Shown: positions 9,833-25,758, counted from the stretch's first letter. The stretch is 32,000 bases of DNA from Horticoccus luteus (GCF_019464535.1 NZ_CP080507.1:3060001-3092000); one strand, 5' to 3'. Made by a program: numbers and translations. Notes: a model not told the origin generated them from the letters alone.

Positions 9833-11581
9833 ATGAGCGATCAATCGCAATCCCACCCCGACTCCCCGTCGGATGTTTCCCAACGCTACGATGAAGAACT
9901 CGCGCAAGCCCCAGCCCCGGTCAGCGCCGATTCTGTCAATCCCACCGAGTTAAAAGCCGGCGCCCTCGACCGCTCCAAACAGCGGCCTTTTCTCCAAAAA
10001 GTCCTCGCTGTCTTTCAAAAGGAAAAGAGTTCCTACCGCGAACTCATCATCAATTCCGAGCCCCTCGAGCGCCGGGTCGCTCTGCTCGTAGACGGCCGCC
10101 TCGAGAAATTCGAGATCGAGCGCCAGTCCGACGACCGCATGGTCGGCGGTATCTACAAAGGTCGCATCAAGAACCTCGATCCCGGCCTCAAGGCCGCCTT
10201 TGTCGACATCGGCTACGCCAAAAACGCGTTTCTCCATTACTGGGACATGCTCCCCGCCGCCGCCGATTCCTCCGTTGAGGTCGTCCGCGTCAACCGCCGC
10301 AAAGACGCACCCGCCCGCTCCGCCGAGCCGACCGTCAAGGATATCCCCAACCTCTACCCGCCCGGCTCCGACATCGTCATCCAAGTCACCAAAGGCCCCA
10401 TCGGCACCAAGGGCCCGCGCACCACGACCAATCTCTCGATCCCCGGGCGTTACCTGATTTTGATGCCCTTCTCCGAGGGCTGTGGCATCTCGCGCAAGAT
10501 CGAGGATCCGCAGGAGCGGAAACGCCTCAAACAGATGCTCAACGAACTCACCATCCCCGAGGGCATGGGCGTGATCGTGCGCACCGCCGGCGAAGGCAAA
10601 AAGACGCGTTACTTCGTGCGCGACCTGCACCTCCTCCTCAAGAAATGGGAGGAAATCTCCACCAAGACCGCCAACGATCGCGCGCCCGCGTGCCTCTATC
10701 AGGAGCCCGATCTCGTCGAACGCACCGTCCGCGACTTCCTCACCGAAGAGGTCGACCGCGTGCTCATCGACAACAAGGCCGATCACGAACGCACCCAGGC
10801 ACTCGTCGGCCAGATCTCCCAACGCTCCCGCGGCCGCATCGGCCTTTACAACGACAGCATCCCGATCTTCGAACGCTTCAACATCGAGCGCCAGATCGAG
10901 CAGACCGCGCAACGCAAAGTCGGCCTCCCCTCCGGCGGCGAAATCGTCATCGACGAAACCGAGGCCCTCATCTCGATCGACGTTAACACCGGCTCCCACA
11001 AAAACCGCGGCGGCGACGAGAAAAATACCATCTACGCCGTCAACCTCGAAGCCGCCACCGAAGCCGCCCGCCAGATCCGCCTCCGCAACCTCGGCGGCCT
11101 CATCATCATCGATTTCATCGACATGAAGGAGCGCCGCCACCGCAACGCCATCTACGAAAAAATGGTCGCGGAAATGGCGCAGGACAAAGCCAAGAATCAC
11201 ATCCTCCCCATCTCCACGCTCGGCATCATGCAAATGACCCGCCAGCGCCAGCAGGAGTCGCTCTCGAGCAATCTCTATACGGACTGCCCGTATTGCCGAG
11301 GCCGCGGCATCGTGAAGAGCGCCACGACGATGTCGGTCGAACTGCAACGCAAGCTCTCCTCCGTTCTCCGCCGCCTGCAACTCCGCAGCGATGTGAAGGA
11401 ATACTCCCTGCGCGTCCTCGTCCACCCAAGCATCTTGGAACGGCTCCGCAGCGAAGACGCGGAATTGCTCGTGCGCATGGAGAAACTTTACGGCGCCAAA
11501 CTCGCCTTCCGTGCGGACCTCAACTACCACGTCGAAAACTTCAAAATCATCAACGCCCTCACCGGCGAAGAATACCGCTAA
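9833..11581 (+). CDS. rng: Rne/Rng-family endoribonuclease (RNase G-like, no long RNase E scaffold tail)
   Basis: 582 aa. It has an S1 domain ([31 protein letters not shown]), a catalytic core ([20 protein letters not shown]) and a Zn-link-like CPYCRGRG. The N-terminal extension is about 70 aa. The TAA stop is at 11579-11581. Confidence 0.88.
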
Positions 11582-11590
11582 CGTGTATGG

Positions 11591-11668
11591 TGACATTAAT
11601 TCCGTGTCGCTGACACGAATTCCGTGATGCAGACATGAATCCCATGCCACGCTGACAGTAATTCCGTA
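11591..11668 (+). repeat. Four phased direct copies of a 16-bp motif (consensus TGACANNAATTCCGTG), period 20-22 bp
   Basis: Units are at 11591-11606, 11611-11626, 11631-11646 and 11653-11668, with 12-14/16 identity to unit 1. Unit 1 lies inside the 23-bp terminal inverted repeat. A degenerate in-phase fifth unit is at 11673-11688. Confidence 0.85.
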
Positions 11669-11693
11669 GTATCGACACAACAGCCACTACTTG

Positions 11694-11726
11694 AAAGGGC
11701 ACCCCCACCGGTGCCCTTTTTCTTTC
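11694..11726 (+). terminator. Rho-independent terminator (currently the first terminator downstream of rng)
   Basis: AAAGGGCACC, loop CCCACC and GGTGCCCTTT form a stem of 7 G/C-rich bp extendable to 10 bp, followed by TTCTTTC. Confidence 0.8.
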
Positions 11727-12015
11727 ACGGTGTCCTGCCAAGCTGGTATTGAAATTTTTGTTCGGATTCAGAGACCGCCACTGCCATCCACTGATTGTCC
11801 CTCGTCCGCCCCCAGCAAACACGGAACCAAAGACTGCAACGCAGTGCTCCTCAACGCCTGCACAGGCATCCGGCGTCATGCTGCTACCGGCAGCGATACG
11901 ATTTCCTGACGCCCGTGGCCAACCACACTAGCGACGTGACAGACCCAATAGGCATATTGGTGATAGGCTTTGAGACTGCTCGTCGGTTTATTTCCGGCGC
12001 GGCTGGACAGCCTGC

Positions 12016-15000
12016 CTACGGGTCGGCGTCGTAAATTTCCACTAATGCGACTCCACTGCCGCCGTCACTTCCGCTCACGATTGCCGTATAGGCACCGGAG
12101 GGCAGGTTGCCGAGCCAAGCAGCATCCCGCGACCCGGACGTCAGGGCAAAGGCGCCGAGGCGTGCGCCAGCACTGGCAATCAGTGAGCCGTTGCCACCGT
12201 TGTCCCAGTCGTCGTTTTCGGCGACCAGCCGATCTCCCTGCATGACCCGCAGGCGCGGATCACCCAGGACTCCGGTCAAGCCAAACTGCTCCAGAGCCGG
12301 GCCGACCGCGCGTATCATTATCCGCTTAGGTCCGCCGGTAATGACAAAGCCACCGATCAGCACATTGTCGCGGTTTCCCACCAGGGCTCGGGAAGAAACA
12401 TTGAGCAACCGGTTATTGCCTTCCCACGTGCGGTAGAGTTCCGCGAGAGCTACCGCCGACGCTCCGGCTTGCACGTGTGCGGTGAACGCGCCCGCGGGGA
12501 GTCGCGGCTGCATGGCCGCATCGTGACTACCCGGATCAAGCGCAAAAGCACCAAGCTCAGACGACAGAGCCGCGATCCCCGGACCATCGTCCTGCCACTC
12601 ATCATTCGTTGCGATCAAGTCGCTTCCCCTAAACAGAAGCAGTCGCGGGTCGTTCACAACCCTTGTAACTCCGAAACGCTGCAACGAAGGGCCGACTCCT
12701 CGTACCAAAGTTCGCATGGTCTCCATTTCCGGCCGGAGCACAAAGCCAACGATCAGCGTCTCCTGGCCTTGTGCGGCGAGGCCGCGGGTCGACAGGTTGG
12801 CGAGCGAGCCGGGAGTCGCCCGCTGTGCAGGGTAGTAAGCGAGGGTCTGTGTATTCAGCGTTGGTGAGCCCGCCAGAATGATACCGAGAGCTACCATACC
12901 GGTCGGCTGTTTGAGCAAAACTCCTCCGGCGGAATTCCAGTCGCTGTGCCACGGACGCGGATTGAACGAGGGATCCCAAGCGCCGTCCGGAAACAGGCGG
13001 ACCGCGCCACGTCGGGCAGTGCCGTCAACTTGGTCGAAGCCGCCTTGCGCCCAGAGAGCCCCGTCGGCCTCCATCTGCACATCAGTGATCCCAGTCGCGT
13101 ATCCTGAAGAGCGAAATTTGGGCGGAGTGAAGGTTTCGTCACGGCGACCGTCGGGCCAGAATCGTTCAATGCCCGGCGCCTCCGGGCTACGTATCACCAC
13201 CCTTCCGTCCGGCAGTCTCACGCCCAGCGTATTAGTCGATCCAGTCACCGGCAGGATGACCGAGTCTACGAAGCGGCCATCCGAATCAAAGTGTTCCAGC
13301 GCGACAGGTGGCGTGTGGGTCAGCGGCTGGCTGACCAATCGGTAGATCGATCCATCGGCCGCCACTATAAACGAGTAAGGACGACCGTCCGCAAACCGTG
13401 CATCCGGCGCAAACGAAGGATCCGGCAGGCCCTCTAGCGTGACCGCGGTGAGTTCCGGCTTCGACGTGGTCGTGCGTTGCACCGCCATCAACATACGATT
13501 CGGTGGCTGCCACTGCAGATCATACGCTTGTGCCCAGGCCGCCAGGGCGTCGTCGTGAAACGTCACCTCGCCGGAGGTCATCACGTGCATGAGGGTGAAC
13601 CGGAACGGCACGTCGATGGACTGCTGGTAAGACGCGAGGACCCAGAACGTGCCGTCGCCCATGGTGACGGCAGCGATCGTGCGCAACTCATAGAACGTCG
13701 CCGGTGAAGTGGCAAAGCTGGAATCCACCGTCCCATCCGCGCGGTAGCGCAGGATCCGCCGATCGCATGCGACCACCAAGCTGCCATCCGGTCCGGGACC
13801 TACTACGAACGGCGCCACCGTTGGGCTGAGGCTGCGTTCCACTTGGACGGTAATGCCGAACGGGTCTACCGATTGCGGCATAATCTGCAGATCAGCCGCC
13901 TCACTCGTCACCGAACCGCCGGCATTGCTCACCGTGGCCCGATAGCTGCCAGTGTCCGCGGTGGTCGCCTGAGCGATGCCCAAATCGGCGCGAGTTTCGC
14001 CCGGAACCGGTGCACCGTCCTTACTCCACGCATACCGGAGGGGCGGAGTGCCCCACGCCTTGACGGATAGCCTCACGGAGTTACCTGCGACCGTGCCTTG
14101 AGCTTGCGGCTGTTGCAGCAGAACCGGCGCCTCCGCCGAGCTGCGCAGGCGGGCCAGGTTGCGCCTCGCGAGGCCACCGACACTGGAAAACTCGCCCGCG
14201 ATCACAATCGAACCGTCCGGCGCAAACGCCATCGCATTTACGGAGGGGTAGCCTCTGTCGCTCGCCATACCGCCCACATCGAAGGTGGGATCGAACTTGA
14301 ACGAAGGGTCCAACCGGGCGACTCCGGCCTGATTGTAGAGTTTGGAAGGATCGTAGTAACCGTCGATCACTACGTTCGTGAAAACGCCGCCTGCCAGCAC
14401 CCGTCCGTCCGCATACGCTAGGATGCACTCGATACTCCCCGGATTGGACAAGCCAACTCCCGAGCAGTATGTCTTGAAGCGGTTCAAGTTGATTCTCTTC
14501 GAGGAATCAGACGTGGTCAGACCATCACCCCAGCTTTTCGCATCGCTCGAATCGGTTCCGAGCATGAGTTTGCCGTTGGGCAGCAGCACGAGCGCGTTGT
14601 AAACGGACGCGGGCGACCGAGCATACGACGTGTTGTCCAGAAGTTGTCCGTCCGGTCCTAACGTCGCGAAAATGGCCTCGTCGTCGTAGAACGTCGAGGG
14701 CGTCAGTTGCGTGCCGGCGATATGCAGCCGTTTGTCCTGGGGCAGGATAGCCGTGATCAGATTGGCAAAGTCTCGCGTCACGTAGGTCGTGATCGGCAGC
14801 GGGCGGTTCCCCGCGTCGAAGGTAAGGTCGAGACTGCCGCCAGGGGTCAGCCGCGCCAGCGACTGGCGGGCGCCGCCGCCGATCTGGCTAAACAGACCGC
14901 CGACGTAAAGCTGCCCGTCAGTCGCGAGAGCGATTGCGGCGACGATGGCATCGGCCGGTAGTTGTGCATTGAACGATGGGTCGACCGACCCATCCGGCCG

Positions 15001-15375
15001 CACCCGGGCGAGCGCGTTGATCGGCCGCCCATTCACCGTCGTGAAACGACCAGCAACGAGAATGTCCCCGTTCGCGAACTGAAGCAGCCGAAGGACCCCG
15101 CCGCTCGCACCCGAATATCCGATGCTCACGTTGAAAGAGGGGTCCATCGTCCCATCCGGCAGCACGCGAGACAGTCGCGCAGGCTGCCCCGTCGCGAACG
15201 TGCCAACGATCATCCGACCTGACTCGTCGATGACGAGTGCGGGTATCGGGTCAGCGGTTGGGAGGTTGGGCGCGAAGGAGGAATCCACGCTCCCGTCCTG
15301 CGCTAAGGATCTAAGGACGCATAATCCGTAACAAAGGCAGCCAACCCATAGCGGCCGAACCGTGCGGAGACACAT
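12016..15375 (-). CDS. Secreted delta-60-repeat (DUF5122-type beta-propeller) protein with a central Ig-like domain and two tandem C-terminal ~125-aa domains
   Basis: 1119 aa. The N-terminal signal-like peptide is MCLRTVRPLWVGCLCYGLCVLRSLA. Recurrent DG(S/T)xDxSF motifs (DGSVDSSF, DGTMDPSF, DGSVDPSF, GGSLDLTF, DGTVDSSF, DGAWDPSF) have the spacing of delta-60 repeats. An I-set-like Ig domain spans aa 417-498 (LRYAWSKDG...TGSYRATVSN; nt 13882-14127). Two homologous C-terminal modules span aa 857-981 and 989-1116 (LxNxSxR...GFV...GP(S/A)Lxx(F)G...DPRL...NDxW...GAFAL...DAA...G(A)(F/Y)TA). Confidence 0.9.
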   Translation of the reverse strand: MCLRTVRPLWVGCLCYGLCVLRSLAQDGSVDSSFAPNLPTADPIPALVIDESGRMIVGTFATGQPARLSRVLPDGTMDPSFNVSIGYSGASGGVLRLLQFANGDILVAGRFTTVNGRPINALARVRPDGSVDPSFNAQLPADAIVAAIALATDGQLYVGGLFSQIGGGARQSLARLTPGGSLDLTFDAGNRPLPITTYVTRDFANLITAILPQDKRLHIAGTQLTPSTFYDDEAIFATLGPDGQLLDNTSYARSPASVYNALVLLPNGKLMLGTDSSDAKSWGDGLTTSDSSKRINLNRFKTYCSGVGLSNPGSIECILAYADGRVLAGGVFTNVVIDGYYDPSKLYNQAGVARLDPSFKFDPTFDVGGMASDRGYPSVNAMAFAPDGSIVIAGEFSSVGGLARRNLARLRSSAEAPVLLQQPQAQGTVAGNSVRLSVKAWGTPPLRYAWSKDGAPVPGETRADLGIAQATTADTGSYRATVSNAGGSVTSEAADLQIMPQSVDPFGITVQVERSLSPTVAPFVVGPGPDGSLVVACDRRILRYRADGTVDSSFATSPATFYELRTIAAVTMGDGTFWVLASYQQSIDVPFRFTLMHVMTSGEVTFHDDALAAWAQAYDLQWQPPNRMLMAVQRTTTSKPELTAVTLEGLPDPSFAPDARFADGRPYSFIVAADGSIYRLVSQPLTHTPPVALEHFDSDGRFVDSVILPVTGSTNTLGVRLPDGRVVIRSPEAPGIERFWPDGRRDETFTPPKFRSSGYATGITDVQMEADGALWAQGGFDQVDGTARRGAVRLFPDGAWDPSFNPRPWHSDWNSAGGVLLKQPTGMVALGIILAGSPTLNTQTLAYYPAQRATPGSLANLSTRGLAAQGQETLIVGFVLRPEMETMRTLVRGVGPSLQRFGVTRVVNDPRLLLFRGSDLIATNDEWQDDGPGIAALSSELGAFALDPGSHDAAMQPRLPAGAFTAHVQAGASAVALAELYRTWEGNNRLLNVSSRALVGNRDNVLIGGFVITGGPKRIMIRAVGPALEQFGLTGVLGDPRLRVMQGDRLVAENDDWDNGGNGSLIASAGARLGAFALTSGSRDAAWLGNLPSGAYTAIVSGSDGGSGVALVEIYDADP

Positions 15376-15735
15376 GCTGCCATCTTGCAGCCCAAGGCAT
15401 TCGCTTCAACCCCTGAGATACAGTGAAGGGTGTAGCGCTTGGGAATCGTGGAAGTCACGGAACCGAAAGTCCGCCGGTCGGGATGGTCCACTCCTCTCTT
15501 TCCGCGGGCGGCATGAAGAACAGACCGTTGACCATGGATAACCGTAAGATTTCAGACGGCTTCGGCCATCGGCTCGCAAAACTGGCTTTCGTCGGGCATC
15601 CCGATGTCCGACAGCGCACCGCGATTATCTACGCGTTCGCCGTCTCCTTCCAGCGCACGAAAACGTGAATTTGAAGATCGCGTGGAGTTGGATGCTGCTC
15701 CGTCAAACGGAGCTTAATTGGAAAGCACCGCATGA

Positions 15736-15795
15736 CTTTGAATTCTTGTCACCTCCCCTCTGACCTTGGTGTCACGGAATTAATGTCACCATACA
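15736..15795 (-). repeat. Right-end copies of the 16-bp motif, in inverted orientation relative to 11591-11668
   Basis: On the minus strand: TGACATTAATTCCGTG (15773-15788, perfect), TGACAAGAATTCAAAG (15736-15751, with GGTGACA..AATTC conserved) and a weak TGACACCAAGGTCAGA (15759-15774). Confidence 0.75.
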
Positions 15796-15850
15796 TTAAC
15801 GAAGAAGAAGAACGCGCAGACCGAAACGTTTTCGCTTCGCTTTTCCTACC

Positions 15851-15878
15851 CGCCCGGCCCACGAGCCGGGCGTTTTTT
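15851..15878 (+). terminator. Rho-independent terminator with no + strand gene in front of it (candidate displaced rng terminator)
   Basis: CGCCCGGC (15851-15858), loop CCACGA and GCCGGGCG (15865-15872) form a perfect 8-bp GC stem, followed by T6 (15873-15878). Confidence 0.75.
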
Positions 15879-15980
15879 GTGTCGCGGGGCGCCCGCCGGC
15901 TCGTCGCCACGGATGCCTTCTCTCGGCCTTGGCCGGTCGACCGCCTGTGACGACCGCGCTCAAACCGACGACACTCGGTC

Positions 15981-16012
15981 ACAAAAAAGCCGTGGCGCCA
16001 TGGCCACGGCTT
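15981..16012 (-). terminator. Rho-independent terminator of the PEP-CTERM gene
   Basis: On the minus strand, AAGCCGTGGC, a 6-nt loop and GCCACGGCTT form a 10-bp stem followed by TTTTGTG (the U-tract overlaps the stem's closing TT). It lies 24 nt after the stop at 16036. Confidence 0.8.
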
Positions 16013-16035
16013 CGCCGAAAGGATCTTCTGCAACC

Positions 16036-16650
16036 TCAGCTTTGCGCGACCGCGCGCCGCCGACGGCGCACAACGACCGCCCCCAGCGCCACCGCTCCCA
16101 GCAGCGCAGCATACGAGCTCGGCTCAGGAATCGGCGACGCATTCACCGCCCCGTAAACCCCGGAATAGATCGGCGAGGTCGGCGCACCAACATAATAGGC
16201 GTAAAAAGGGTATCCGGTGGGAGACACCGCAAAGAAATCACTCGTGCCATGGATGAACTCCGCCGAGCCCTGGGAAATACCGTTCGGGGCGGCGGCGAAT
16301 TGAAACGTCGAACCGATGATCACGATCTGCAGGCCGACGGCACTCGCGTTGGTCGTCATATCAGCCTCGGTAAAATTGACGCCGCCGTTAAAGGAAAACG
16401 AAAGCGTTAACCCATCGAAGCTCGTGAAATCATAGGATCCGTCGCCTAACGGCGCCCCAATGTAAGTCATCGTGCCGACCCCGACGATGCTGTTGGTGTC
16501 GAGCACGCCCGACATGCCAAGGCCGGAGTTGTCGAATAGCGACTCCAGGGTTTGAATCGGGGCACCAGGGGCGGGCGACGCGAAGGCCGGCGTTTGCGAA
16601 AAAATGACCGCGGCTCCAACGCCGAGAAGGATGGTTTTAATTGAGTTCAA
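16036..16650 (-). CDS. Small PEP-CTERM-anchored secreted protein
   Basis: The C-terminus SPIPEPSSYAALLGAVALGAVVVRRRRR is a PEP motif plus TM helix plus Arg cluster. The signal-like N-terminus LNSIKTILLGVGAAVIFSQTPAFA starts at TTG 16650, so the start is uncertain. The track ORF extends to 16824, but that extension is Arg-rich and looks non-coding. Confidence 0.8.
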   Translation of the reverse strand: MNSIKTILLGVGAAVIFSQTPAFASPAPGAPIQTLESLFDNSGLGMSGVLDTNSIVGVGTMTYIGAPLGDGSYDFTSFDGLTLSFSFNGGVNFTEADMTTNASAVGLQIVIIGSTFQFAAAPNGISQGSAEFIHGTSDFFAVSPTGYPFYAYYVGAPTSPIYSGVYGAVNASPIPEPSSYAALLGAVALGAVVVRRRRRAVAQS

Positions 16651-16770
16651 GCGCCCGAAATATCCACCGAGGCCGCGGGGGTTTGGCGATAGCAAAAAAA
16701 TGTAAAGTCGACGACAGCTCACCCTGCGTCCGCCGGCTTGGCGCAAAGCGCGAGCCGGTGCTTTCCCGAG

Positions 16771-16848
16771 GGAATTTCGCGCTGCTTTTAGCCCGCGTGT
16801 AATTTTCCGACGGGCTTTCCGCAATTGGCTGCAACGGCGCCACTCCCG
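16771..16848 (+). promoter_or_regulatory. Conserved upstream module, copy A (candidate promoter/5' leader of the 16863 gene)
   Basis: GGAATTTC (16771-16778), TGTAATTTTCCGACGGGCTTTCCGCAATTGG (16798-16828) and CACTCCCG (16841-16848). The 31-mer matches 20492-20522 at 24/31 without gaps. Confidence 0.45.
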
Positions 16849-16862
16849 GCGTCGCTCTCCCC

Positions 16863-19800
16863 ATGAAATCAGCCTCCTCCCTTCATCGCTTAAGCGCCTT
16901 CCTGTTCCGCGCGGCCCTCCCGCTTGCGCTCGCCTTCAGCGCGCCTGCCCTTTGCGCGGGCACGCCCTCACCCATCACGATCTCGCCGCCGACGATCGCT
17001 CCGCTCCAGACACTCAATCCTTATGCGCAAGCGTTCACCGCCACCGGCGGAGCGGCGCCCTACACCTGGAGCACGCCCATTGTCGCACTGCCCGCCGGAC
17101 TCGCGCTCAACTCCACTACCGGCCTAATCAGCGGCACGCCCACCAAAGCCGGCAGCGCGGTCATTTTCATCCGCGTGACCGACGTCAACGGTCTCTCCAC
17201 GCAACGCGGATGGAATGTCGCCATCGCCGTTGGCGCGCCGCCTGTCGTTTCCAATCCGCCGCCCGACAATGCCGGACCGCCGCCACCTTCCTCCTCCGCC
17301 TCCACGCCGCTCGCCATCACGCCGACGACATTGCCCGCCGGCACCGTGGGCTTGGGGTATTCCTACATCCTCAATGCCACCGGCGGCACACCGCCTTACA
17401 CCTGGAATCTTCAATCCGGCAGCTTCCCAACCGGCCTCGCCCTCGACGCCGCCGGGCACATCGGCGGCACCCCGGCCAGCGGCGGCGCGTGGATTTATTC
17501 TTATCCCTATTCGGTCTATATCAACGTCACCGATTCCACCGGTCACAAAGCCGCCGCCTCATTTCCAATCGCGCTGCAGCCGTCCCCTGATGGCTCCGGC
17601 GAAGGCGGCTCCACGCCGCCGCCCGTCGTCACGCCGCCGTCCGCCACCTATACGGTGACCGTCGTCAACGGCACCGCGAACGGCACGGCGACCGCCACGG
17701 TTTCCGCCGGCAACACCGTCTCCTTGGCCGCCGCGCCTGCGCCCGCCGGCCAGTATTTCAAACAATGGAGCGGCCCCGCCTCCGCCGATCCCTTCGCGGC
17801 CACCACGACGTTCGTCATGCCGGCGGCGAACGTCACCTTCACCGCGAATTACTATACCCCTCCGCCTCTCCCCGCGGTCGTCGCCGGCCACCCACGGCTC
17901 TGGCTCAATCAATCCGATCTCCCGCGCCTCCGCTCCTGGGCCACGCCGTCCAACACCCTCTATCAACAAGGCCTGCGATCCATGCTCTCGCTCGCCCTGC
18001 ACGCCTACGACCTTTGTTTTCCCAACGCCCAGCTCGCCAGCCCATATCCCGATTCGGGCGATATCAACGGCTACTCCGGCGCCAATATCACGCCGAGCGA
18101 CATGATCAGCGAACAACACGCACTCACCCTCGCGTTCTTCGGCCTCGTCGATCCCGACCCGGCCGCGCGCCTCGTTTACGCGCAAAAAGCCCGTGCCCTG
18201 TTCATGTATGTCATCAACGAAGCCGCGAAAGGCCACCTCAAGGGCGCACCCTTCCGCGATCCCATCTTCTCCATCTACAATCGCGGCAACTCCAGTGGCG
18301 AATGCTGGCCGCTCCTCGCCGACTGGCTCCAGGGCGTCACCGATGCCAACGGCCAGCCCGTCGCCATCCTCACTCCCCAGGACAAAGCCACCATTCGCAG
18401 CGTTTTCCTCCTCTGGGCCGACGACTGCCTCAACGCCTATACAACCGGCGGCGATCACCCCGCGCCCATCGGCGTCACGAATAACGTCGCGCTCCTTCCG
18501 GGCGGCAACGCCATGCGCATCGCGGCCAACAACTACTATCTCAACCACGCCCGCCTCATCACCATGATGCCGCTCGCACTCGATGCCGCGGATGATCCCG
18601 CGGTAGACTCCGCGGTCCCCGCCTCGGTCCGCGGCAACACCCTGCGCAGTTACCTCCTCAACGCCACCGGCGCCTGGCTCTATCAACAATTCGCGATGTT
18701 CGGCGATCCCGCCGACGTGCGCGCCGCCTATCAACTCCCCGCCTCCGCCAGCGTCGGCCTCGCCTCGGGCGGCACCGCCGTCGAAGGCGGCCTCTACGGA
18801 CACTCCATCGGCTATATACAAGGCCAGCTCCTCGCGCTGCAAACCGCCGGCGCCACCGATCCCGCCGTGTTCGGTCCGCAGATCAGTCTTCTCAACTCCC
18901 CCGTGTGGGATCGCTATGTGCACGGCTTGTTCGCCACCATGGTGCCCCAGCAACAGGTCAATCCCGTGCAAAGTTATCTCGGGCCGATTTATGAAATCGC
19001 CAGCATCGGCGACCTCATCCGGCTCTGGGTGACGCCCGACGTCATGACGACCTATTCCCTGCTCGCCCTCACGGAACAGAAGCAGGGCCGCACCGATCAC
19101 CTCGCCGCCGCCCGTTGGATCGCGCTCAACGCCGTCGAAGGCGGCAGCGCCGGCCTGCTCAACCGCATTCAGCGGCCCTACAACACCATCGAGTCCATTC
19201 TCTATTTCATGCTCTTCGATCCCACGGATCCGACCGCCCTCCATCCGGCCGACCCGCGGCTCGCCTACGGCGCGAATTTCTACGACCCCGGCATGGGCCG
19301 CCTGCTCGCGCGCACCGACTGGTCGCCCAACGCCACGCTCTTCGATTTCCGCAGCGGCTGGCTCTCCATTAACCATCAGAATTGCGACGGCGGCCAAATC
19401 GAGTTCTACCGCCACGGCGAATGGCTCACCAAGGAGCTCTCCAACTACGACAACTACGGCAACGGCCAGTCCACCATCTGGCATAATACCCTCGCGCTGC
19501 AAAACTGGTCCTCCTCCGCGACGCCGTTCATGCAATGGTTCGAACAGCCCTACTGGAACAACGGCTCGCAATGGAACAACCACCAGTCCGCCGGCGATCC
19601 CGTCACCCTCGCCAGCAGTGGCCCAGGCTACGCCGCCGCGCAGACCGACCTCACGAATCTCTATAATCACCCGTCGTCCAATCCAGCCGGCAACTTCACC
19701 GACATCCAGCACGCCAGCCGCTCGGTCGTCTGGCTTCAGCCCGATTGCATCGTGATCTACGACCGCGCCACGTCGTTGCACGCCGGCCTGTTCAAACGCT

Positions 19801-20360
19801 TCAATCTCTCGCTGACGGCCGCGCCGTTCATCGATCAAGCGCAGCGTCAGGCCTCGGTCATCACGCCTCACGGGCAGCACCTCTTCGTGCAGACGTTGCT
19901 CCCCGCCAACGCCACGCTCACCTACGTCCCCGAAGGCGGCACGCTCACCAACATCGCCCAACTTGAACCGTGCAACGGCCGCCTCGTCGTCGAAGACACC
20001 ACCCGTCCCACCGACGTCCGCTTCCTCCACGTATTGCAAGGCGCCGACGCCGCGGTCACGTCACCCACCGCCGCCAGCATGGTGCAAAGCACCGCCGGCA
20101 CGGCCTGCACCGGCGCAATCGTCGGCGCCAGCGTGGTGATGTTTCCCGTTAACCTCGGCGGCGCCAACGTCGGCACAAGTTACAGCGTTCCCGCGACCGT
20201 GACGAAACACTACGTCACCGGCCTCGTGCCCGGTGGTTCCTACTCGGTCGTCGCGGATAGTGATGGCGTCACCGCGCAGGTCGCCCTCACGCCCGGCGGC
20301 CCGCTCACCGCCGATTCCGCCGGTGTGCTCTGCTTCGACCTTGCGAGCGTCATGAACTGA
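16863..20360 (+). CDS. Secreted multidomain protein: 2x He_PIG-type putative Ig domains, a divergent InlB B-repeat-like domain and a heparinase II/III-like (polysaccharide lyase fold) region
   Basis: 1165 aa with signal peptide MKSASS...APALCAG. Two G..PYTW...LP(A/T)GLAL...G.I(S/G)GTP modules span aa 37-123 and 149-238. YTVTVVNGTANG...YFKQWSG...VTFTANY spans aa 262-331. Then HPRLWLNQSDLPRLRSWA... and later INHQNCDGGQIEFYRHGEWLTKE...WHNTLALQN resemble the heparinase II/III C-terminal signature. Confidence 0.88.
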   Translation: MKSASSLHRLSAFLFRAALPLALAFSAPALCAGTPSPITISPPTIAPLQTLNPYAQAFTATGGAAPYTWSTPIVALPAGLALNSTTGLISGTPTKAGSAVIFIRVTDVNGLSTQRGWNVAIAVGAPPVVSNPPPDNAGPPPPSSSASTPLAITPTTLPAGTVGLGYSYILNATGGTPPYTWNLQSGSFPTGLALDAAGHIGGTPASGGAWIYSYPYSVYINVTDSTGHKAAASFPIALQPSPDGSGEGGSTPPPVVTPPSATYTVTVVNGTANGTATATVSAGNTVSLAAAPAPAGQYFKQWSGPASADPFAATTTFVMPAANVTFTANYYTPPPLPAVVAGHPRLWLNQSDLPRLRSWATPSNTLYQQGLRSMLSLALHAYDLCFPNAQLASPYPDSGDINGYSGANITPSDMISEQHALTLAFFGLVDPDPAARLVYAQKARALFMYVINEAAKGHLKGAPFRDPIFSIYNRGNSSGECWPLLADWLQGVTDANGQPVAILTPQDKATIRSVFLLWADDCLNAYTTGGDHPAPIGVTNNVALLPGGNAMRIAANNYYLNHARLITMMPLALDAADDPAVDSAVPASVRGNTLRSYLLNATGAWLYQQFAMFGDPADVRAAYQLPASASVGLASGGTAVEGGLYGHSIGYIQGQLLALQTAGATDPAVFGPQISLLNSPVWDRYVHGLFATMVPQQQVNPVQSYLGPIYEIASIGDLIRLWVTPDVMTTYSLLALTEQKQGRTDHLAAARWIALNAVEGGSAGLLNRIQRPYNTIESILYFMLFDPTDPTALHPADPRLAYGANFYDPGMGRLLARTDWSPNATLFDFRSGWLSINHQNCDGGQIEFYRHGEWLTKELSNYDNYGNGQSTIWHNTLALQNWSSSATPFMQWFEQPYWNNGSQWNNHQSAGDPVTLASSGPGYAAAQTDLTNLYNHPSSNPAGNFTDIQHASRSVVWLQPDCIVIYDRATSLHAGLFKRFNLSLTAAPFIDQAQRQASVITPHGQHLFVQTLLPANATLTYVPEGGTLTNIAQLEPCNGRLVVEDTTRPTDVRFLHVLQGADAAVTSPTAASMVQSTAGTACTGAIVGASVVMFPVNLGGANVGTSYSVPATVTKHYVTGLVPGGSYSVVADSDGVTAQVALTPGGPLTADSAGVLCFDLASVMN

Positions 20361-20384
20361 TCCCCTTCCCCACGTCAGCCCTCC

Positions 20385-20414
20385 AGCCGCCGGCTCACCA
20401 CCGGCGGCTTTTTT
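20385..20414 (+). terminator. Rho-independent terminator of the 16863-20360 gene
   Basis: AGCCGCCGG (20385-20393), a 7-nt loop and CCGGCGGCT (20401-20409) form a 9-bp stem, followed by TTTTTC. Confidence 0.82.
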
Positions 20415-20463
20415 CTGCCCGGAGCCCTCGCGGTCGCTTCGGTCCGGCCGCGGTCGCGACGCC

Positions 20464-20537
20464 GGAAAATTTCTGCCGCCGCAAACTTTCCTGTAATTCT
20501 CCGCCGGCGATCCCGCAATCGGTCGTGGGCACTCCCG
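20464..20537 (+). promoter_or_regulatory. Conserved upstream module, copy B (candidate promoter/5' leader of the HAF-sigma-kinase operon)
   Basis: GGAAAATTTC (20464-20473), TGTAATTCTCCGCCGGCGATCCCGCAATCGG (20492-20522) and CACTCCCG (20530-20537). Element order and the internal 21-nt spacing match copy A. Confidence 0.45.
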
Positions 20538-20547
20538 CCTCTTCTCC

Positions 20548-21654
20548 ATGACGCTTCCCTCCCGCCTCGCTGCCACCGCGGCCCTGCTCACCCTCACCAT
20601 CGCCGCGCGCGCCGATTTTCACTATACTCTGACCGACCTCGGCACTGTTGGCGCCACTTATAGCTACGGCACCGCGATCAACAACGCCGGCACGGTCGCC
20701 GGCTATCTCGACTACACCTCCACCGGCACCAAAATCGCCTTCGTCGCCGTCGGCGACGCCGCGCAACCGATCGGCACGCTCGGCGGCACTGAGAGCCGCG
20801 CGCTCGGTCTCAACGATGCCGGGCAAGTCGTCGGCTATAGTTTTCCCGCCTCGGGTAATTACCACGCATTCATCTACGCTCACGGCACATTCACCGATCT
20901 CGGCACCCTCGGTGGCGGAGCGAGCTACGGCTATGCCATCAACCAATCCGGCCAAGCCACCGGCTATTCGACTGTCACCTCCCAAGCGCCGCATGCCTTT
21001 CTCTACGCCGGCGGCGTGATGACCGATCTCGGCCTCCTTCCCGGCGGACTTTCCAGCAATGGTCAGGCGATTAACGCTTCCGGCCAGGTCGCCGGTTCCG
21101 CCACTCTCGCCAACGCCCACTCCCGCGCGGTGCTCTTTTCCGGCGGCGCCGCGCTCGATCTCGGCACGCTCGGCGGCGCCAACAGCTACGCCTACGGCCT
21201 CAACGACGCCGGCCAGGTCGTCGGCTACTCCAACACCGCCGCGGGCCCTAACCGGGCGTTTCTGTTCACCGACGGCGCCCTCACCTCACTCGGCGCGTTC
21301 GGCCCCTCTCTCGATAGCTATGCCACGGCGATCAACAACCTCGGCGACGTCATTGGTTACGCCGGCACCGCCACCAACGGCAACCACGGCTTCATCTCCT
21401 CGGCCGGCACGCTCTACGATCTCAACGATTTCATCACCGGCGCGAGCGGCTACACCGTCACCGTGCCCTACGCGATCAACGATCTCGGCCAGATCGCCGC
21501 CGCCGCGCACGACCCCTTCGGCTACACCCACGCCGTGCTGCTCACGCCGTCGCAAATTTCCCCGTCGCTCGCCACCATCCCCGAGCCGTCCGCCGCGGCC
21601 CTCCTCGCGGCCGCCGTCGCGCTGGCTGTCGCGGTGCCGCGGCGGCGCCGATGA
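20548..21654 (+). CDS. HAF-family extracellular repeat protein with PEP-CTERM anchor
   Basis: 368 aa with signal peptide MTLPSRLAATAALLTLTIAARA. About 8 repeats of the form LGTLGG..S.A.GIN..GQV(V/A)GYS......HAF(L/I)Y. The C-terminus is IPEPSAAALLAAAVALAVAVPRRRR. Confidence 0.9.
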   Translation: MTLPSRLAATAALLTLTIAARADFHYTLTDLGTVGATYSYGTAINNAGTVAGYLDYTSTGTKIAFVAVGDAAQPIGTLGGTESRALGLNDAGQVVGYSFPASGNYHAFIYAHGTFTDLGTLGGGASYGYAINQSGQATGYSTVTSQAPHAFLYAGGVMTDLGLLPGGLSSNGQAINASGQVAGSATLANAHSRAVLFSGGAALDLGTLGGANSYAYGLNDAGQVVGYSNTAAGPNRAFLFTDGALTSLGAFGPSLDSYATAINNLGDVIGYAGTATNGNHGFISSAGTLYDLNDFITGASGYTVTVPYAINDLGQIAAAAHDPFGYTHAVLLTPSQISPSLATIPEPSAAALLAAAVALAVAVPRRRR

Positions 21655-22442
21655 ACGCCACACTTGACGCTTCACTCGCGCCCGCCGCGGGTTATGACTC
21701 CCGGCTCATGCCCGAGCGCGAGTCTCCCGCTGGTGACGCCGCCTTCGCTTCCACCCAATGGAGCATCGTTCTCGCGTCGCGCCCCGACGCCACCGACCGG
21801 CCCGCTGCGCTGCAATCCCTCTGTTCCGCGTATTGGCTGCCTGTCTACAGCTATCTGCGCCGCCGCAACTTTTCGCCTGCCGATGCGGAAGATCTCACGC
21901 AGGGCTTTTTCGCCTACGTGATCGAGAGCGATTTTCTCACCCGACCCGACCCCGCCCGCGGTCGCTTTCGCGGCTACCTCGTCGGCGCGCTGAAACACTT
22001 CCTCGGCCAGCACTTCGAACGCGCCCTCGCGCAAAAACGCGGCGGCCGCGTCCGTTTTGTGGATTGGTCCACGCTCGACGCCGAACGCGAATTTGCCGCC
22101 GCCGATCAACCGCAACTCGACCCCAGTGAAGCCTACGAGAAAACCTGGGCGCTCACGCTCCTGCACCGCGCGTTGCAACAACTCGAAGCCGAACAAATCG
22201 CCGCCGGCCGGCAACGCGTCTTCACTGTCCTGCGCGCCTTCCTCAGCGCGACGCCCACGCGGGGCGACTACGATGCCGCCGCCCTCGCCCTCGGCACCTC
22301 CCGCACCAACGTCGCCGTCTGGGTCCACCGCCTCAACCACCGCTACGCCGAACTCGTGAAACTCGAAGTCGCCGCCACCGTGCGCTCGCCCGACGACATC
22401 GCCGCCGAGATGCAACACCTCCTTCAGGCGCTGCGCCGCTAG
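21651..22442 (+). CDS. ECF-type sigma-70 family RNA polymerase sigma factor
   Basis: 263 aa. Sigma-2-like region: WLPVYSYLRRRNFSPADAEDLTQGFFAYVIE...FRGYLVGALKHFL. Sigma-4-like HTH: AAALALGTSRTNVAVWVHRLNHRYAEL. ATG 21651 overlaps the upstream TGA (ATGA at 21651-21654). An alternative in-frame ATG is at 21708. Confidence 0.82.
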   Translation: MNATLDASLAPAAGYDSRLMPERESPAGDAAFASTQWSIVLASRPDATDRPAALQSLCSAYWLPVYSYLRRRNFSPADAEDLTQGFFAYVIESDFLTRPDPARGRFRGYLVGALKHFLGQHFERALAQKRGGRVRFVDWSTLDAEREFAAADQPQLDPSEAYEKTWALTLLHRALQQLEAEQIAAGRQRVFTVLRAFLSATPTRGDYDAAALALGTSRTNVAVWVHRLNHRYAELVKLEVAATVRSPDDIAAEMQHLLQALRR

Positions 22443-22449
22443 TCCGCCG

Positions 22450-25400: not shown

Positions 25401-25758
25401 TGGCCGCACCGTGCTTACGTCCAACGGTCCCTCCGAAAGCATCCTCTGGGATACCGCCACGTGGCAGCCGCGCGTAAAACTTGCGGGAGAACTCGGAGGC
25501 GACGCCACGTCGTTCGCGCTCTCGCCCGACGAGGCCTACGCCGTAATCGTGCGCGACAATCACATTCACCTCGTTGCGATGACCGACGGAAAGGCGTTTG
25601 CGACCATCGAACTCCCCGATGCGGCCGATCTCGCCACCGGCGTAAAATTTCTCCCCGACGGCCATCGCTTCGCCATCCTTTGGCCCGACAGCCGCATCGA
25701 TATCCTCGACCCCGCCGCCTTGCGCGCGTCCCTCGATCCGCTCGGCTTGGCGTGGTGA
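22450..25758 (+). CDS. Transmembrane Ser/Thr protein kinase with N-terminal zinc-ribbon-like CxxC pair and C-terminal WD40/PD40-like beta-propeller ectodomain
   Basis: 1102 aa. CPRCG...CLRC is near the N-terminus. The Hanks kinase motifs are GRGGMGRVY, VALK, HRDLKPSNILL, DFGLA and GTPHYLAPE (nt about 22675-23469). A single TM helix, PALAAVWLLVVAIAVGSTLSAVWVAHA, spans nt 23536-23613. At least 10 blades of the form (F/W)SPDG.... follow. Confidence 0.92.
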   Translation: MPPSASASPPPASCPRCGNLTAHPFADVGGLCLRCAGERAFALGTDTPFETETPLDPAVATGVADFAPIDQPARIGPYTIIEELGRGGMGRVYAARQSGLGRIVALKVFSPGPGAPPELEMRFLREAQTVARLHHPHIISIHDSGRAGGDVYFSMAYVEGGDLARQLRQRTFAPREAAALVAKIASALAHAHAEGVLHRDLKPSNILLDDGEPRLADFGLAAQLETSGDFTSASGVFGTPHYLAPEAMHGGGAALSAASDLYALGVVLYALLTGRTPFAGASPAELAALVNSTEPPSPRLLAPAVPHDLETICLKCLERDSARRYTSAAALAEDLRRFLAGEHILARPISPLGHFFRWCRRRPALAAVWLLVVAIAVGSTLSAVWVAHARAATEKSLARARAAEAADREHLRAARLSEARAIRHTTLPGRRQQALVALAEAARIRPGVDLRNEALSALLLTDLSPAETWDLGTNAPAAITFDPAGRTAAVEMINVAGPVRSPATFHTWGQGLATPPIAAAGTRVIGTLRFSADGQHAMARYLDATLRVWRTHDGQPELILRGLPLPGGSMLTKDFNDDYDFSPDASQVVVGAAPHGLTLHRLTDGGELAHSPAGAQFNVVRYSPDGALIAAARTQDHAAREVFIFRADTLALAYRLAQVTAPSALEWTADGTRLLVGAEDNSLSIFDVRHERLLARHPLGLHDLVQVLPLDDDRLAVTRGVETNLHFVNLLTGRPEFELPEIGPALVAAPRGGHTFVTTSLQGIATRWNVISPIGLRSIAPPHPSAYTGAGLSGSFDLSPDGRWAASGHGRYTLLRDLATGRVLAALDAGADRATEFTTVAFEANGSSLLVCSTLNGLQQRELVRRSDGREIEFGPPQLIDAEPGFAIAAYSADRLRCALVNFETGAVKIIERSSGGLRNRAHWTTPGVYGAAFSPDAAEVLVNCSGQGPAGGEQRLRVHRVDDGAVVAELPARVSCDVAWSRDGRTVLTSNGPSESILWDTATWQPRVKLAGELGGDATSFALSPDEAYAVIVRDNHIHLVAMTDGKAFATIELPDAADLATGVKFLPDGHRFAILWPDSRIDILDPAALRASLDPLGLAW

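What the first reader, a model, noticed from the sequence alone, without database searches (positions are those of the whole stretch)
11579..15801. Transposase-less 4.2-kb cassette with Tn7/Mu/IS21-style ends inserted between the rng stop codon and its native terminator
Seen directly: TGTATGGTGACATTAATTCCGTG (11584-11606) recurs as a perfect 23/23 reverse complement at 15773-15795. TAACG abuts the left copy (11579-11583; its TAA is the rng stop codon) and recurs 1 nt beyond the right copy (15797-15801), giving a 4-5 bp direct repeat that looks like a target-site duplication. Removing 11584-15796 would leave the rng TAA followed 51 nt later by the otherwise orphan + strand terminator at 15851-15878. 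The ends read 5'-TGT...ACA-3', and each carries extra inward-facing copies of a 16-bp sub-repeat (4-5 on the left, 2-3 on the right). The interior holds one long gene (a secreted delta-60-repeat protein), its own terminator and no recognisable transposase or recombinase. By eye the segment is more AT-rich and less GC3-biased than the flanking housekeeping genes. Established knowledge: Tn7-like (TnsB) elements, and in part Mu and IS21-type DDE elements, have TG..CA termini, several phased transposase-binding repeats distributed asymmetrically between the two ends, about 5-bp duplications, and insertion just 3' of a conserved gene. TIR-bounded passenger cassettes without a transposase (mobile insertion cassettes) are also known. 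Inference: this is a non-autonomous cargo element mobilised in trans, with the rng 3' end as its attachment site. I am not aware of that site or that cargo type being described.
Basis: partly seen in the sequence, partly recalled or inferred. Interest (0 to 1): 0.75.

Follow-up and report, generated by a model that had tools for sequence, protein, structure and literature searches.

The report
Transposase-less Tn7-style cassette behind rng
A 4.2-kb insert carrying one secreted-protein gene sits directly behind the RNase G gene of Horticoccus luteus, bounded by Tn7-type transposon ends but encoding no transposase, and sister cassettes with quite different cargo occupy the same spot in related bacteria.

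Summary
A perfect 23-bp inverted repeat (11584-11606 / 15773-15795) with TGT...ACA tips bounds a 4,212-bp segment. It lies between the rng stop codon and rng's displaced terminator. The rng-side end has four contiguous 16-bp repeats; the far end has two.

Ends of the same family were found only in Opitutaceae. At least nine different elements were seen. In all six with a visible rng-side end, that end starts 2-4 nt after the rng stop, always in the same orientation. Cargo is unrelated between elements: delta-60 protein, Na/Ca exchanger, TIR-TPR, FRG, pectin lyase, an NAD-salvage island and others. Strains with an identical Rng protein show both empty and occupied sites.

The end anatomy matches Tn7: an 8-nt TGT tip, GACA-type sites, and a contiguous array on the target-gene side.

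None of the nine elements encodes a transposase or integrase. The mobilising enzyme is unidentified, so "Tn7-like, mobilised in trans" remains an inference.

Flanking duplications are irregular: 4 bp, 5 bp with a 1-nt offset, or none. In one species the last ~148 nt of rng are exchanged together with the cassettes, so homologous recombination also spreads them.

Compositional deviation is weak. Verdict: new variant of a known kind; interest moderate to high.

The parts
9833..11581 (+). rng (RNase G/E family), the target gene. Its last codons and stop codon adjoin the insertion point.
   Evidence: Pfam RNase_E_G E 3.6e-99. 100% identical to Horticoccus luteus Rne/Rng ribonuclease P0001.
11579..11583 (+). 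Left copy of the flanking direct repeat TAACG. It contains the rng stop codon TAA.
11584..11606 (+). rng-proximal terminal inverted repeat: the tip TGTATGG, then the first 16-bp site.
   Evidence: 23/23 complementary to 15773-15795. The identical 23-mer forms both termini of the element in Opitutaceae UBA3033 (L016).
11591..11668 (+). Array of four contiguous 16-bp sites TGACAnnAATTCCGTG (starts 11591, 11611, 11631, 11653; 0, 0, 3 and 1 mismatches). These are putative transposase-binding sites, arranged like the Tn7 right end.
   Evidence: The module, including its spacers, is conserved in five other elements. nhmmer E 4.7e-26.
11693..11725 (+). Element-borne intrinsic terminator (AAAGGGCACC / GGUGCCCUUU plus a U-run). 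It now terminates rng. It also folds on the - strand, so it could serve the cargo gene as well.
   Evidence: -18.5 kcal/mol, z -5.0; - strand -18.7 kcal/mol. Every sister element has a terminator at this position.
11726..12015 (.). Non-coding spacer between the terminator and the cargo stop codon. No transposase remnant was detected.
   Evidence: ORFs of 33-106 aa gave no Pfam hit at E<=1. No Rfam hit.
12016..15375 (-). Cargo gene: a 1119-aa protein with a signal-like N-terminus, delta-60/DUF5122 beta-propeller repeats and an Ig I-set domain.
   Evidence: No PADLOC hit.
15376..15735 (-). Upstream region of the cargo gene, presumably holding its promoter. It lies inside the element.
   Evidence: No sigma-70-type consensus was found. 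ORFs there gave no Pfam hit. The promoter assignment is inference only.
15736..15751 (-). Second, weak site of the distal end (TGACAAGAATTCAAAG, 3 mismatches). A 21-nt gap separates it from the terminal site, as in the sister elements.
15773..15795 (-). Distal terminal inverted repeat: the terminal site plus the tip, reading ...CCATACA on the + strand.
   Evidence: nhmmer distal-end model E 1.1e-23 over 15669-15795.
15797..15801 (+). Right copy of TAACG, separated from the terminus by T15796.
15851..15878 (+). Displaced native rng terminator.
   Evidence: Relatives have a terminator 30-50 nt after the rng stop.

Best explanation
Window 11584-15795 is a non-autonomous member of a family of site- and orientation-specific transposon cassettes, so far confined to Opitutaceae. 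These cassettes insert 2-4 nt downstream of the rng stop codon.

How it most likely works (inferred):
- A TnsB/MuA-type DDE transposase encoded elsewhere binds the 16-bp sites, which are contiguous at the rng-proximal end and gapped at the distal end.
- It cuts at the TGT/ACA tips.
- A target selector of the TnsD/TniQ kind reads the conserved 3' coding sequence of rng and places the element just past the stop codon, with the contiguous-site end facing rng.
- The insertion leaves a short (4-5 bp) duplication.

Shown directly:
- The proximal module carries its own terminator, so rng is still terminated even though its native terminator now lies 4.2 kb away.
- The cargo, a secreted delta-60/Ig protein, is transcribed towards rng from inside the element.

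Once installed, occupied sites also spread between strains by homologous recombination within the last ~150-300 nt of rng.
For: - Termini and arrays: perfect 23-bp TIR with TGT...ACA tips and arrays of 16-bp sites.
- Restricted distribution: a scan of 185,579 species genomes and one of 241 million metagenome records found the terminal pattern, apart from isolated hits that look like chance matches, only in Opitutaceae-type DNA. Seven viral and plasmid hits were judged chance.
- Fixed site and orientation: six elements with a visible proximal end (window, L012, L015/23/28, L016, L017, L048 group) all begin 2-4 nt after the rng stop with the contiguous array facing rng. Three more (L020, L024, L025) show only the distal end. 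In L020 and L025 a terminator-type hairpin follows that end; the L024 flank resembles L020's.
- Unrelated cargo: delta-60 protein; Na/Ca exchanger; TIR-TPR; FRG; PL4 lyase with SDR and hydrolase; a >=13.9-kb NAD-salvage cluster; RibD_C/YCII; DUF2306/Grx/CMD/MFS/LysR; a small lipoprotein.
- Presence/absence behind an identical Rng protein: empty L057 reads cgcTAA|GAAAATCCCCTCTATGAAGAGGGG. Occupied L048 has a 0.97-kb element followed by AGAAATTCCCCTCTATGAAGAGGGG. The upstream 600 nt are 94.7% identical.
- Different flanks on identical ends: elements with identical 23-bp ends have different flanking repeats (TAACG in the window, GATT in L016). The repeats are therefore target-derived, as in transposition.
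- Register of the ends matches Tn7. The verified Tn7R is TGTGGGCG followed by four contiguous GACA... sites on the glmS side. Tn7L has three spaced sites. The element here reads TGTATGGT followed by GACA...
- Published TnsB-site motifs begin the same way: GGTGACAACTAYSGCCGAAA, GACAAWTAATTWGTTA, TGACAWASSWTGTGTCGY, and RGTGACGTTTTSAWTDW for the Opitutaceae species Lacunisphaera limnophila (PMC8649781 Table S1).
- TGT/ACA tips are required for Tn7-like transposition (PMC11014353).
Against: - No transposase, AAA+ regulator, TniQ or integrase was seen in any of nine elements. Four of them were read end to end with both arrays intact, and a fifth (L025) has a diverged rng-side end. None was seen in 839 kb of fetched DNA either (Pfam; precomputed Pfam; tblastn). 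The family assignment therefore rests on DNA anatomy alone.
- Flanking duplications do not fit a clean 5-bp Tn7 signature: 5 bp with a 1-nt offset (window), 4 bp (L016, L017), none (L048).
- One proximal terminus reads TGC rather than TGT (L017), and some ends are decayed (L025, L058). Many copies may therefore be immobile.
- In one species the last ~148 nt of rng carry 20-36 synonymous differences between strains while the rest of the gene differs by <1%. Orphan rng 3' fragments lie next to cassettes. At least part of the spread is therefore by homologous recombination, not transposition.
- The window's own genome could not be searched for a helper element or for further copies.
Confidence: 0.6

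Rival explanations
1. Fossil cassette. The ends are relics of an old transposition. The H. luteus copy and most sister copies are no longer mobile. Their present patchy distribution is produced by homologous recombination, with rng and downstream DNA acting as anchors after transformation or other DNA uptake.
For: - No helper transposase was found anywhere.
- A hyper-variable, purely synonymous 148-nt tract sits at the rng 3' end among strains with an identical Rng protein. Orphan rng 3' fragments are joined to cassettes.
- L048 has no matching flanking repeats.
- Decayed ends occur in L017, L025 and L058.
Against: - The window's 23/23 inverted repeat is intact, as are its TGT/ACA tips. The identical 23-mer is present in a different genus-level lineage (L016).
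- The whole proximal module is conserved beyond the site cores in elements with unrelated cargo. This argues for continuing selection on the ends, or for recent spread.
- This rival concerns present-day activity. It is compatible with a transposition origin.
Confidence: 0.2
2. Integrase-type cis-mobilisable island. The 16-bp repeats are arm-type binding sites of a tyrosine recombinase, contiguous on one arm and spaced on the other as in lambda attL/attR. The inverted termini are core-type sites. The short direct repeat is the crossover region. An integrase encoded elsewhere moves the cassette.
For: - There is formal similarity between 'direct repeat + inverted repeat + asymmetric repeat arrays' and attL/attR.
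- Duplicated rng 3' fragments, as in L050 and L053, are typical of integrases that target gene 3' ends.
- Tyrosine-recombinase transposons that use Tn7-type target selectors exist (Tsy; PMC10293859).
Against: - The crossover core should be identical within a family. Here the flanking repeats differ (TAACG, GATT, GAGG, none) although the ends are the same.
- The empty-site flanks do not resemble the element termini.
- The insertion point varies by 0-2 nt relative to the stop codon.
- TGT/ACA tips and GACA-type sites match TnsB-type ends.
- No integrase gene was found in any element.
Confidence: 0.08
3. A non-autonomous derivative of another DDE family with multi-site ends (IS21 IstA/IstB, Mu-like, or Tn552/Tn5053-like) rather than of the Tn7 lineage proper.
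For: - Two sister elements have 4-bp duplications (L016, L017). This fits IS21-type elements better than the 5 bp of Tn7/Mu/Tn5053 (established knowledge, not tested here).
- TG...CA tips and repeated subterminal sites are shared by all these families.
Against: - Strict site and orientation specificity just downstream of a conserved gene, with the contiguous array facing that gene, is the Tn7 hallmark. It is not a property of IS21 or Mu.
- The 8-nt tip plus GACA register equals Tn7 and published TnsB-site motifs.
Confidence: 0.1
4. Not a mobile element. The repeats are operator or terminator modules that regulate rng or the neighbouring gene, and the inverted copy arose by chance or by local duplication.
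For: The proximal module does act as the rng terminator and is fixed in some lineages (L058).
Against: - Presence/absence polymorphism behind identical Rng proteins.
- Unrelated cargo always lies exactly between the two arrays.
- The 23/23 inverted repeat had zero expectation in shuffles.
Confidence: 0.02

Closest known systems
Tn7 and Tn7-like (TnsB-family) transposons that home to an attachment site downstream of a conserved gene (Tn7 at glmS)
   Same: - TGT...ACA tips.
- An 8-nt tip followed by GACA-type ~20-bp sites.
- A contiguous array on the end that faces the target gene and a gapped array on the other end.
- Insertion just past the stop codon of an essential or conserved gene in one orientation.
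- Highly variable cargo, including defence genes.
(PMC8649781)
   Different: - No tnsA/B/C/D or tniQ in any of nine elements.
- The attachment gene (rng) is not mentioned in the main text of the two Tn7 surveys checked, nor in a full-text search for 'downstream of rng'.
- The insertion lies 2-4 nt after the stop codon rather than ~25 bp after it.
- Duplications are 4 bp or irregular instead of a clean 5 bp.
- A terminator is built into the target-proximal end where Tn7 has tnsA.
Defective Tn402/Tn5053-type elements (class 1 integron backbones such as In2) and partly deleted Tn7-like elements that keep intact ends and are thought to move with proteins supplied in trans
   Same: Intact multi-site ends, missing or truncated transposition genes, and dependence on a related helper (PMC11837452, for Tn7-like elements; the integron case is from established knowledge).
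   Different: Those elements retain remnants of tni/tns genes and have known autonomous relatives. Here no remnant and no autonomous relative was seen, and elements are as small as 0.97 kb.
Mobile insertion cassettes (MICs) and MITEs
   Same: TIR-bounded, with no transposase and passenger gene(s). Sizes range from 1 to several kb.
   Different: MICs and MITEs share their ends with a co-resident IS and insert at many sites. This family is seen at one chromosomal site in one orientation, and it has long asymmetric multi-site ends.
AbaR/Tn6022-type resistance islands at comM, and genomic islands at attTn7
   Same: A single conserved chromosomal site accumulates diverse cargo. Target immunity and recombination between elements shape the islands (PMC11014353).
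   Different: Those islands interrupt comM and carry tns genes. Here the target gene stays intact and the elements carry none.

Membership tests
Tn7-like (TnsB-family) transposon | Terminal 5'-TGT...ACA-3' with a short tip followed by the first transposase-binding site | tested here: met
   TGTATGGT+GACA... at both ends. The register equals that of the verified Tn7R/Tn7L, TGTGGGCG+GACA.... Sister elements have TGTnnGG, with one exception that reads TGC.
Tn7-like (TnsB-family) transposon | Several ~20-bp direct repeats at each end, arranged differently at the two ends: contiguous at the right end, spaced at the left end | tested here: met
   There are four contiguous sites at the rng side. At the distal side a terminal site is followed by a ~20-nt gap and then 1-4 more sites.
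Tn7-like (TnsB-family) transposon | Encodes a DDE (rve) transposase TnsB, an AAA+ regulator TnsC/TniB and a TniQ/TnsD target selector | tested here: not met
   No such domain was found in the window element or in eight sister elements. tblastn with Tn7 TnsA-E gave E>=0.2. The element can therefore be at most a non-autonomous derivative.
Tn7-like (TnsB-family) transposon | 5-bp target-site duplication | tested here: inconclusive
   Window: TAACG, offset by 1 nt at the right junction. L016: GATT. L017: GAGG (4 bp). L048: none.
Tn7-like (TnsB-family) transposon | Site- and orientation-specific insertion downstream of a conserved gene, with the right end proximal | tested here: met
   Six of six proximal ends lie 2-4 nt after the rng stop in the same orientation. 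Empty and occupied alleles were both found.
Tn7-like (TnsB-family) transposon | The ends are bound and cut by a TnsB-family protein | not testable with these tools
   This needs the helper gene from the complete genomes, or biochemistry.
Mobile insertion cassette / MITE | TIR-bounded, without a transposase, with or without passenger genes | tested here: met
Mobile insertion cassette / MITE | The ends match those of an autonomous IS or transposon in the same or related genomes, with copies at multiple sites | tested here: not met
   Pattern scans of the genome and metagenome collections returned copies in Opitutaceae only. Every copy whose rng-side flank could be read lies directly behind rng, and none was autonomous. 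The scans needed exact matches, so diverged helpers could have been missed.
Tyrosine-recombinase integrative element (CIME-like) | An identical crossover core flanks all members, and the attB half-sites resemble the element's core sites | tested here: not met
   The flanking repeats differ between elements with identical ends. The empty-site flanks are unlike the termini.
IS21-type element | istA/istB genes; multi-repeat TG...CA ends; 4-8-bp duplications; no fixed chromosomal site | tested here: inconclusive
   The ends and the 4-bp duplications are compatible. There are no ist genes. The fixed site and orientation are not an IS21 property.

The most novel reading that the evidence does not exclude
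Opitutaceae may keep a dedicated 'cassette dock' behind rng. There, transposase-free cassettes with Tn7-type ends, in at least two end families, are inserted, swapped and stacked. The transposition machinery would never travel with the cargo. It could be host-encoded or domesticated, or a rare helper kept out of the site by target immunity. This would be functionally an integron-like gene-capture site built on DDE transposition and rng-anchored recombination.
Probability: 0.12. Interest if true: 0.85.

Novelty: new variant of a known kind. Interest (0 to 1): 0.6.

Why it matters
- It would add rng to the small list of conserved genes used as homing sites by Tn7-type elements. It would also extend the biology to Verrucomicrobiota, where very few such elements are recorded.
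- Every sampled member lacks transposition genes although it keeps selected-looking ends. This raises a concrete, testable question: where is the helper?
- One possibility is that helper-less cassettes occupy the site and, through target immunity, exclude autonomous elements.
- The site is also a practical marker for variable accessory and defence cargo in Opitutaceae. Cargo seen includes a TIR protein, an FRG protein, an NAD-salvage island and large secreted proteins, plus DISARM in the second end family that uses the same site.
- A defined target selector for rng would be a candidate for site-specific insertion tools.

Tried and rejected
- Exact-protein look-ups of the window's Rng and cargo proteins found nothing. 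The genome scan did not return the window's own locus. Extra copies or a helper inside the H. luteus genome could therefore not be sought.
- Sampling of rng neighbourhoods through 10 further look-ups (about 45 loci) found many empty sites and several cassettes but no transposase.
- The longest element (L020) was extended via its cargo protein. This gave 13.9 kb of NAD-salvage genes without a proximal end or a transposase.
- The viral-contig scan and plasmid BLAST of both end modules gave only chance or terminator hits.
- Hits L006, L008-L011, L013, L014, L018, L019, L021, L022, L026 and L027 were judged chance matches. Each has a single site and no array, and those whose titles name an organism (L006-L019) come from unrelated taxa.
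- Rfam found nothing in 11000-16900.
- Lacunisphaera limnophila carries a published Tn7-like TnsB, but its rng site is empty and the element lies about 0.65 Mb away. Its site motif shares only the GTGAC half.
- A literal match to the site motif in the Benler Table S1 motif list gave no hit.
- The cargo protein shows no internal repeats by self-BLAST.
- No distal end was found for the L012 and L015/L023 elements.

Full report
**1. What is in the window**

The window comes from Horticoccus luteus (Opitutaceae, Verrucomicrobiota). Its Rng protein is 100% identical to the NCBI H. luteus entry on a 4.32-Mb contig. Its genes are gyrA, suhB-like, a TPR protein, queF, rny, rodA and rng, followed by surface and secreted proteins.

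rng ends at 11581 with TAA. Directly after TAACG (11579-11583) comes TGTATGGTGACATTAATTCCGTG (11584-11606). Its perfect reverse complement lies at 15773-15795. The shuffled expectation for this repeat is zero.

The 16-mer TGACAnnAATTCCGTG occurs four times in tandem at the left end, at 11591, 11611, 11631 and 11653 with 20-22-nt spacing. It occurs twice in inverted orientation at the right end, at 15773-15788 and 15736-15751. That makes 7 hits in the window against 1.56 expected.

TAACG recurs at 15797-15801, one nucleotide beyond the right tip.

A strong hairpin plus U-run at 11693-11725 follows the left array (-18.5 kcal/mol, z -5.0). The terminator at 15851-15878 (-18.1 kcal/mol) would lie 51 nt after the stop codon if the insert were removed.

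The only long gene inside is 12016-15375 (-). It encodes an 1119-aa protein with a signal-like N-terminus, delta-60/DUF5122 repeats and an Ig domain. Small ORFs in the two non-coding stretches have no Pfam match at E<=1, and Rfam finds nothing.

Composition deviates only mildly:
- GC is 60.9% against 64.1% for the rest of the window.
- Cargo GC3 is 0.708 against 0.811 for rng, but 0.669 and 0.699 occur elsewhere in the window.
- Tetranucleotide distance is highest at the element (27.4), while 24.8 is reached elsewhere.

**2. Relatives of the element**

I scanned 185,579 species genomes with TGTNNNGTGACANNAATTCCGTG and the metagenome records with a 19-base version. The hits with repeat arrays came only from Opitutaceae-type DNA. 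The remaining hits were isolated single sites that I judge to be chance.

Together with loci fetched through Rng homologues, this gives nine different elements.

| Locus | Source | Size | Cargo | Notes |
|---|---|---|---|---|
| window | H. luteus | 4.2 kb | delta-60 protein | both ends |
| L016 | Opitutaceae UBA3033 | 1.5 kb | Na/Ca exchanger | both termini identical to the window's 23-mer |
| L017 | Oleiharenicola | 2.2 kb | TIR-TPR protein | proximal tip reads TGC |
| L012 | Nibricoccus | >5 kb | PL4 lyase, SDR, hydrolase | distal end not in the locus |
| L015/L023/L028 | Verrucomicrobiota MAG and metagenome contigs | unknown | FRG protein | distal end not found |
| L007/L020/L060-62 | uncultured Opitutaceae MAG and metagenome contigs | >=13.9 kb | NAD-salvage cluster | distal end only |
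| L024 | metagenome contig | >=1.8 kb | RibD_C, YCII | distal end only |
| L025/L029/L050/L054 | metagenome contigs (Rng ~94% identical to Lacunisphaera sp. entries) | ~6.9 kb | DUF2306, glutaredoxin, CMD, MFS-porin, LysR | diverged proximal end |
| L048/51/52/55 | same species as the row above (identical Rng protein) | 0.97 kb | one small lipoprotein-like ORF | both ends |

In all six elements where the contiguous array is visible, it begins 2-4 nt after the rng stop codon and faces rng. The proximal module is conserved in sequence across elements with unrelated cargo. It comprises the tip, four sites, their spacers TTGG/ACGC/CCACGC and a terminator. The distal module comprises the tip, site 1, a ~20-nt spacer and then 1-4 further sites (nhmmer).

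**3. Evidence that it is an insertion**

The closest relative available (L001, Rng 93% identical) has the same upstream gene order. Its rng stop is followed about 35 nt later by a terminator, with no repeats and no cargo gene.

More decisive evidence comes from contigs that encode one and the same Rng protein (P0121) but carry different DNA behind it:
- an empty site, L057: cgcTAA|GAAAATCCCCTCTATGAAGAGGGG...;
- the 0.97-kb element, L048, whose distal tip is followed by AGAAATTCCCCTCTATGAAGAGGGG...;
- the 6.9-kb element;
- a DISARM island.

Between L048 and L057 the upstream 600 nt are 94.7% identical. The 94 nt after the element align to the 93 nt after the stop codon of the empty allele. Many other Opitutaceae rng loci are empty.

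**4. What kind of element it is**

I checked the anatomy against real Tn7, taken from plasmid R721. Tn7R reads TGTGGGCG followed by four contiguous GACA... sites, and it faces glmS in chromosomal insertions. Tn7L has three spaced sites.

The element here reads TGTATGGT followed by GACA... in the same register. Its contiguous array is on the target-gene side and its gapped array is on the other side.

Published TnsB-site motifs begin the same way: GGTGACAACTAY..., GACAAWTAATTWGTTA and TGACAWASS... The motif for the Opitutaceae species Lacunisphaera limnophila is RGTGACGTTTT... (PMC8649781 Table S1). TGT/ACA tips are required in Tn7-like elements (PMC11014353).

Elements with identical ends have different flanking repeats: TAACG here and GATT in L016. 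The repeat is therefore target-derived. This argues for transposition and against a conservative recombinase with a fixed crossover core.

**5. What does not fit**

- No transposase, AAA+ regulator, TniQ or integrase was found in any element or in 839 kb of fetched DNA.
- Flanking duplications are irregular: 5 bp with a 1-nt offset, 4 bp in two cases, none in one.
- Some ends are decayed (L017 tip; L025 proximal end; a relic that now serves as the rng terminator in L058).
- Among strains with an identical Rng protein, 20-36 of the 23-53 nucleotide differences in rng fall in the last ~148 nt. All are synonymous. The rest of the gene differs by <1%.
- Orphan rng 3' fragments of about that length lie next to cassettes in L050 and L053.

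The last two points mean that occupied sites are also passed around, or converted, by homologous recombination. The cassette travels with about 140 nt of donor rng. This probably explains the mismatched flanks of L048.

**6. Mechanism, with status of each step**

Shown:
- an insertion at a fixed site and in a fixed orientation;
- transposon-type ends;
- a built-in terminator that replaces the displaced rng terminator;
- cargo-only content;
- recombinational exchange of the rng 3' end.

Inferred:
- binding of a TnsB-type transposase to the 16-bp sites;
- recognition of the conserved rng 3' coding sequence by a TnsD/TniQ-like selector;
- supply of both proteins in trans;
- possible exclusion of autonomous elements from occupied sites by target immunity.

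I put 0.6 on the Tn7-type non-autonomous transposon model. I put about 0.9 on the broader statement that this is a mobile cassette specific for the rng 3' end.

**7. Novelty**

Non-autonomous derivatives of Tn7/Tn402-type elements are known in principle (PMC11837452; class 1 integron backbones, from established knowledge).

The main text of two broad Tn7 surveys mentions neither rng nor RNase G. A full-text search for 'downstream of rng' together with Tn7 found nothing relevant. No paper in the library describes a family in which every sampled member lacks transposition genes.

I therefore rate it as a new variant of a known kind.

Noticed in passing
L049 11751-11885 and 12110-18291: A second end family uses the same site. 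Six ~22-nt-phased repeats of a different motif (TGAATTAAAGTCC) plus a terminator start 4 nt after the rng stop. They are followed by a DISARM defence system (DrmC, DrmB, DrmA; PADLOC E 1e-57 to 1e-267).
   Followed up: partly
L048, L049, L050, L053, L057: last ~148 nt of rng: Strains with an identical Rng protein differ by 20-36 synonymous changes in the last ~148 nt of rng but by <1% in the other ~1600 nt. This looks like a sharp recombination or gene-conversion tract that travels with the downstream cassette.
   Followed up: partly
L050 11747-12050 (= L025 4936-5240); L053 11747-12060: A full rng plus terminator is followed by a conserved ~110-nt GC-rich segment and then an orphan copy of the last 100-140 nt of rng with its stop codon. 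In L050 this orphan is joined to a diverged proximal end (GGATTAATTCCGT-type repeats). No significant Rfam match to the segment (best E 0.01, scores far below the gathering thresholds).
   Followed up: partly
L058 11753-11860 (= L059 5407-5515): A decayed copy of the proximal module (nhmmer E 0.0017) with the family's terminator now serves as the rng terminator. The next genes are two ~1850-aa M10-peptidase/Ig proteins, reminiscent of the large secreted cargo in the window.
   Followed up: partly
L048 12811-14817: About 2 kb carrying a GH43 gene lies between two copies of the native rng terminator region. The empty allele L057 has one copy and goes straight to the Fic gene.
   Followed up: no
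L060/L061 180-13884: The largest element carries a complete NAD salvage and biosynthesis set: NAPRTase, NAD synthase, PRPP synthetase, NrtR, isochorismatase, NAD kinase, NUDIX, NMNAT, PnuC and a NadR-like kinase. A ParE/antitoxin pair sits just outside the distal end, and IS630-type ORFs (HTH_32, DDE_3) lie 4.3 kb further on in L060.
   Followed up: no
window 16036-16824 and 16863-25758: The PEP-CTERM protein gene has the lowest GC3 in the window (0.669) and has no counterpart in relative L001. There the He_PIG gene follows rng directly and is 268 aa instead of 1165 aa. The DNA beyond the element is therefore also variable between relatives.
   Followed up: no
window 11579-11581 versus relatives: H. 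luteus rng ends in TAA, which lies inside the flanking repeat. The closest relative L001 and most other sampled Opitutaceae rng genes end in TGA; some end in TAA (e.g. L040, L050, L053, L057).
   Followed up: no
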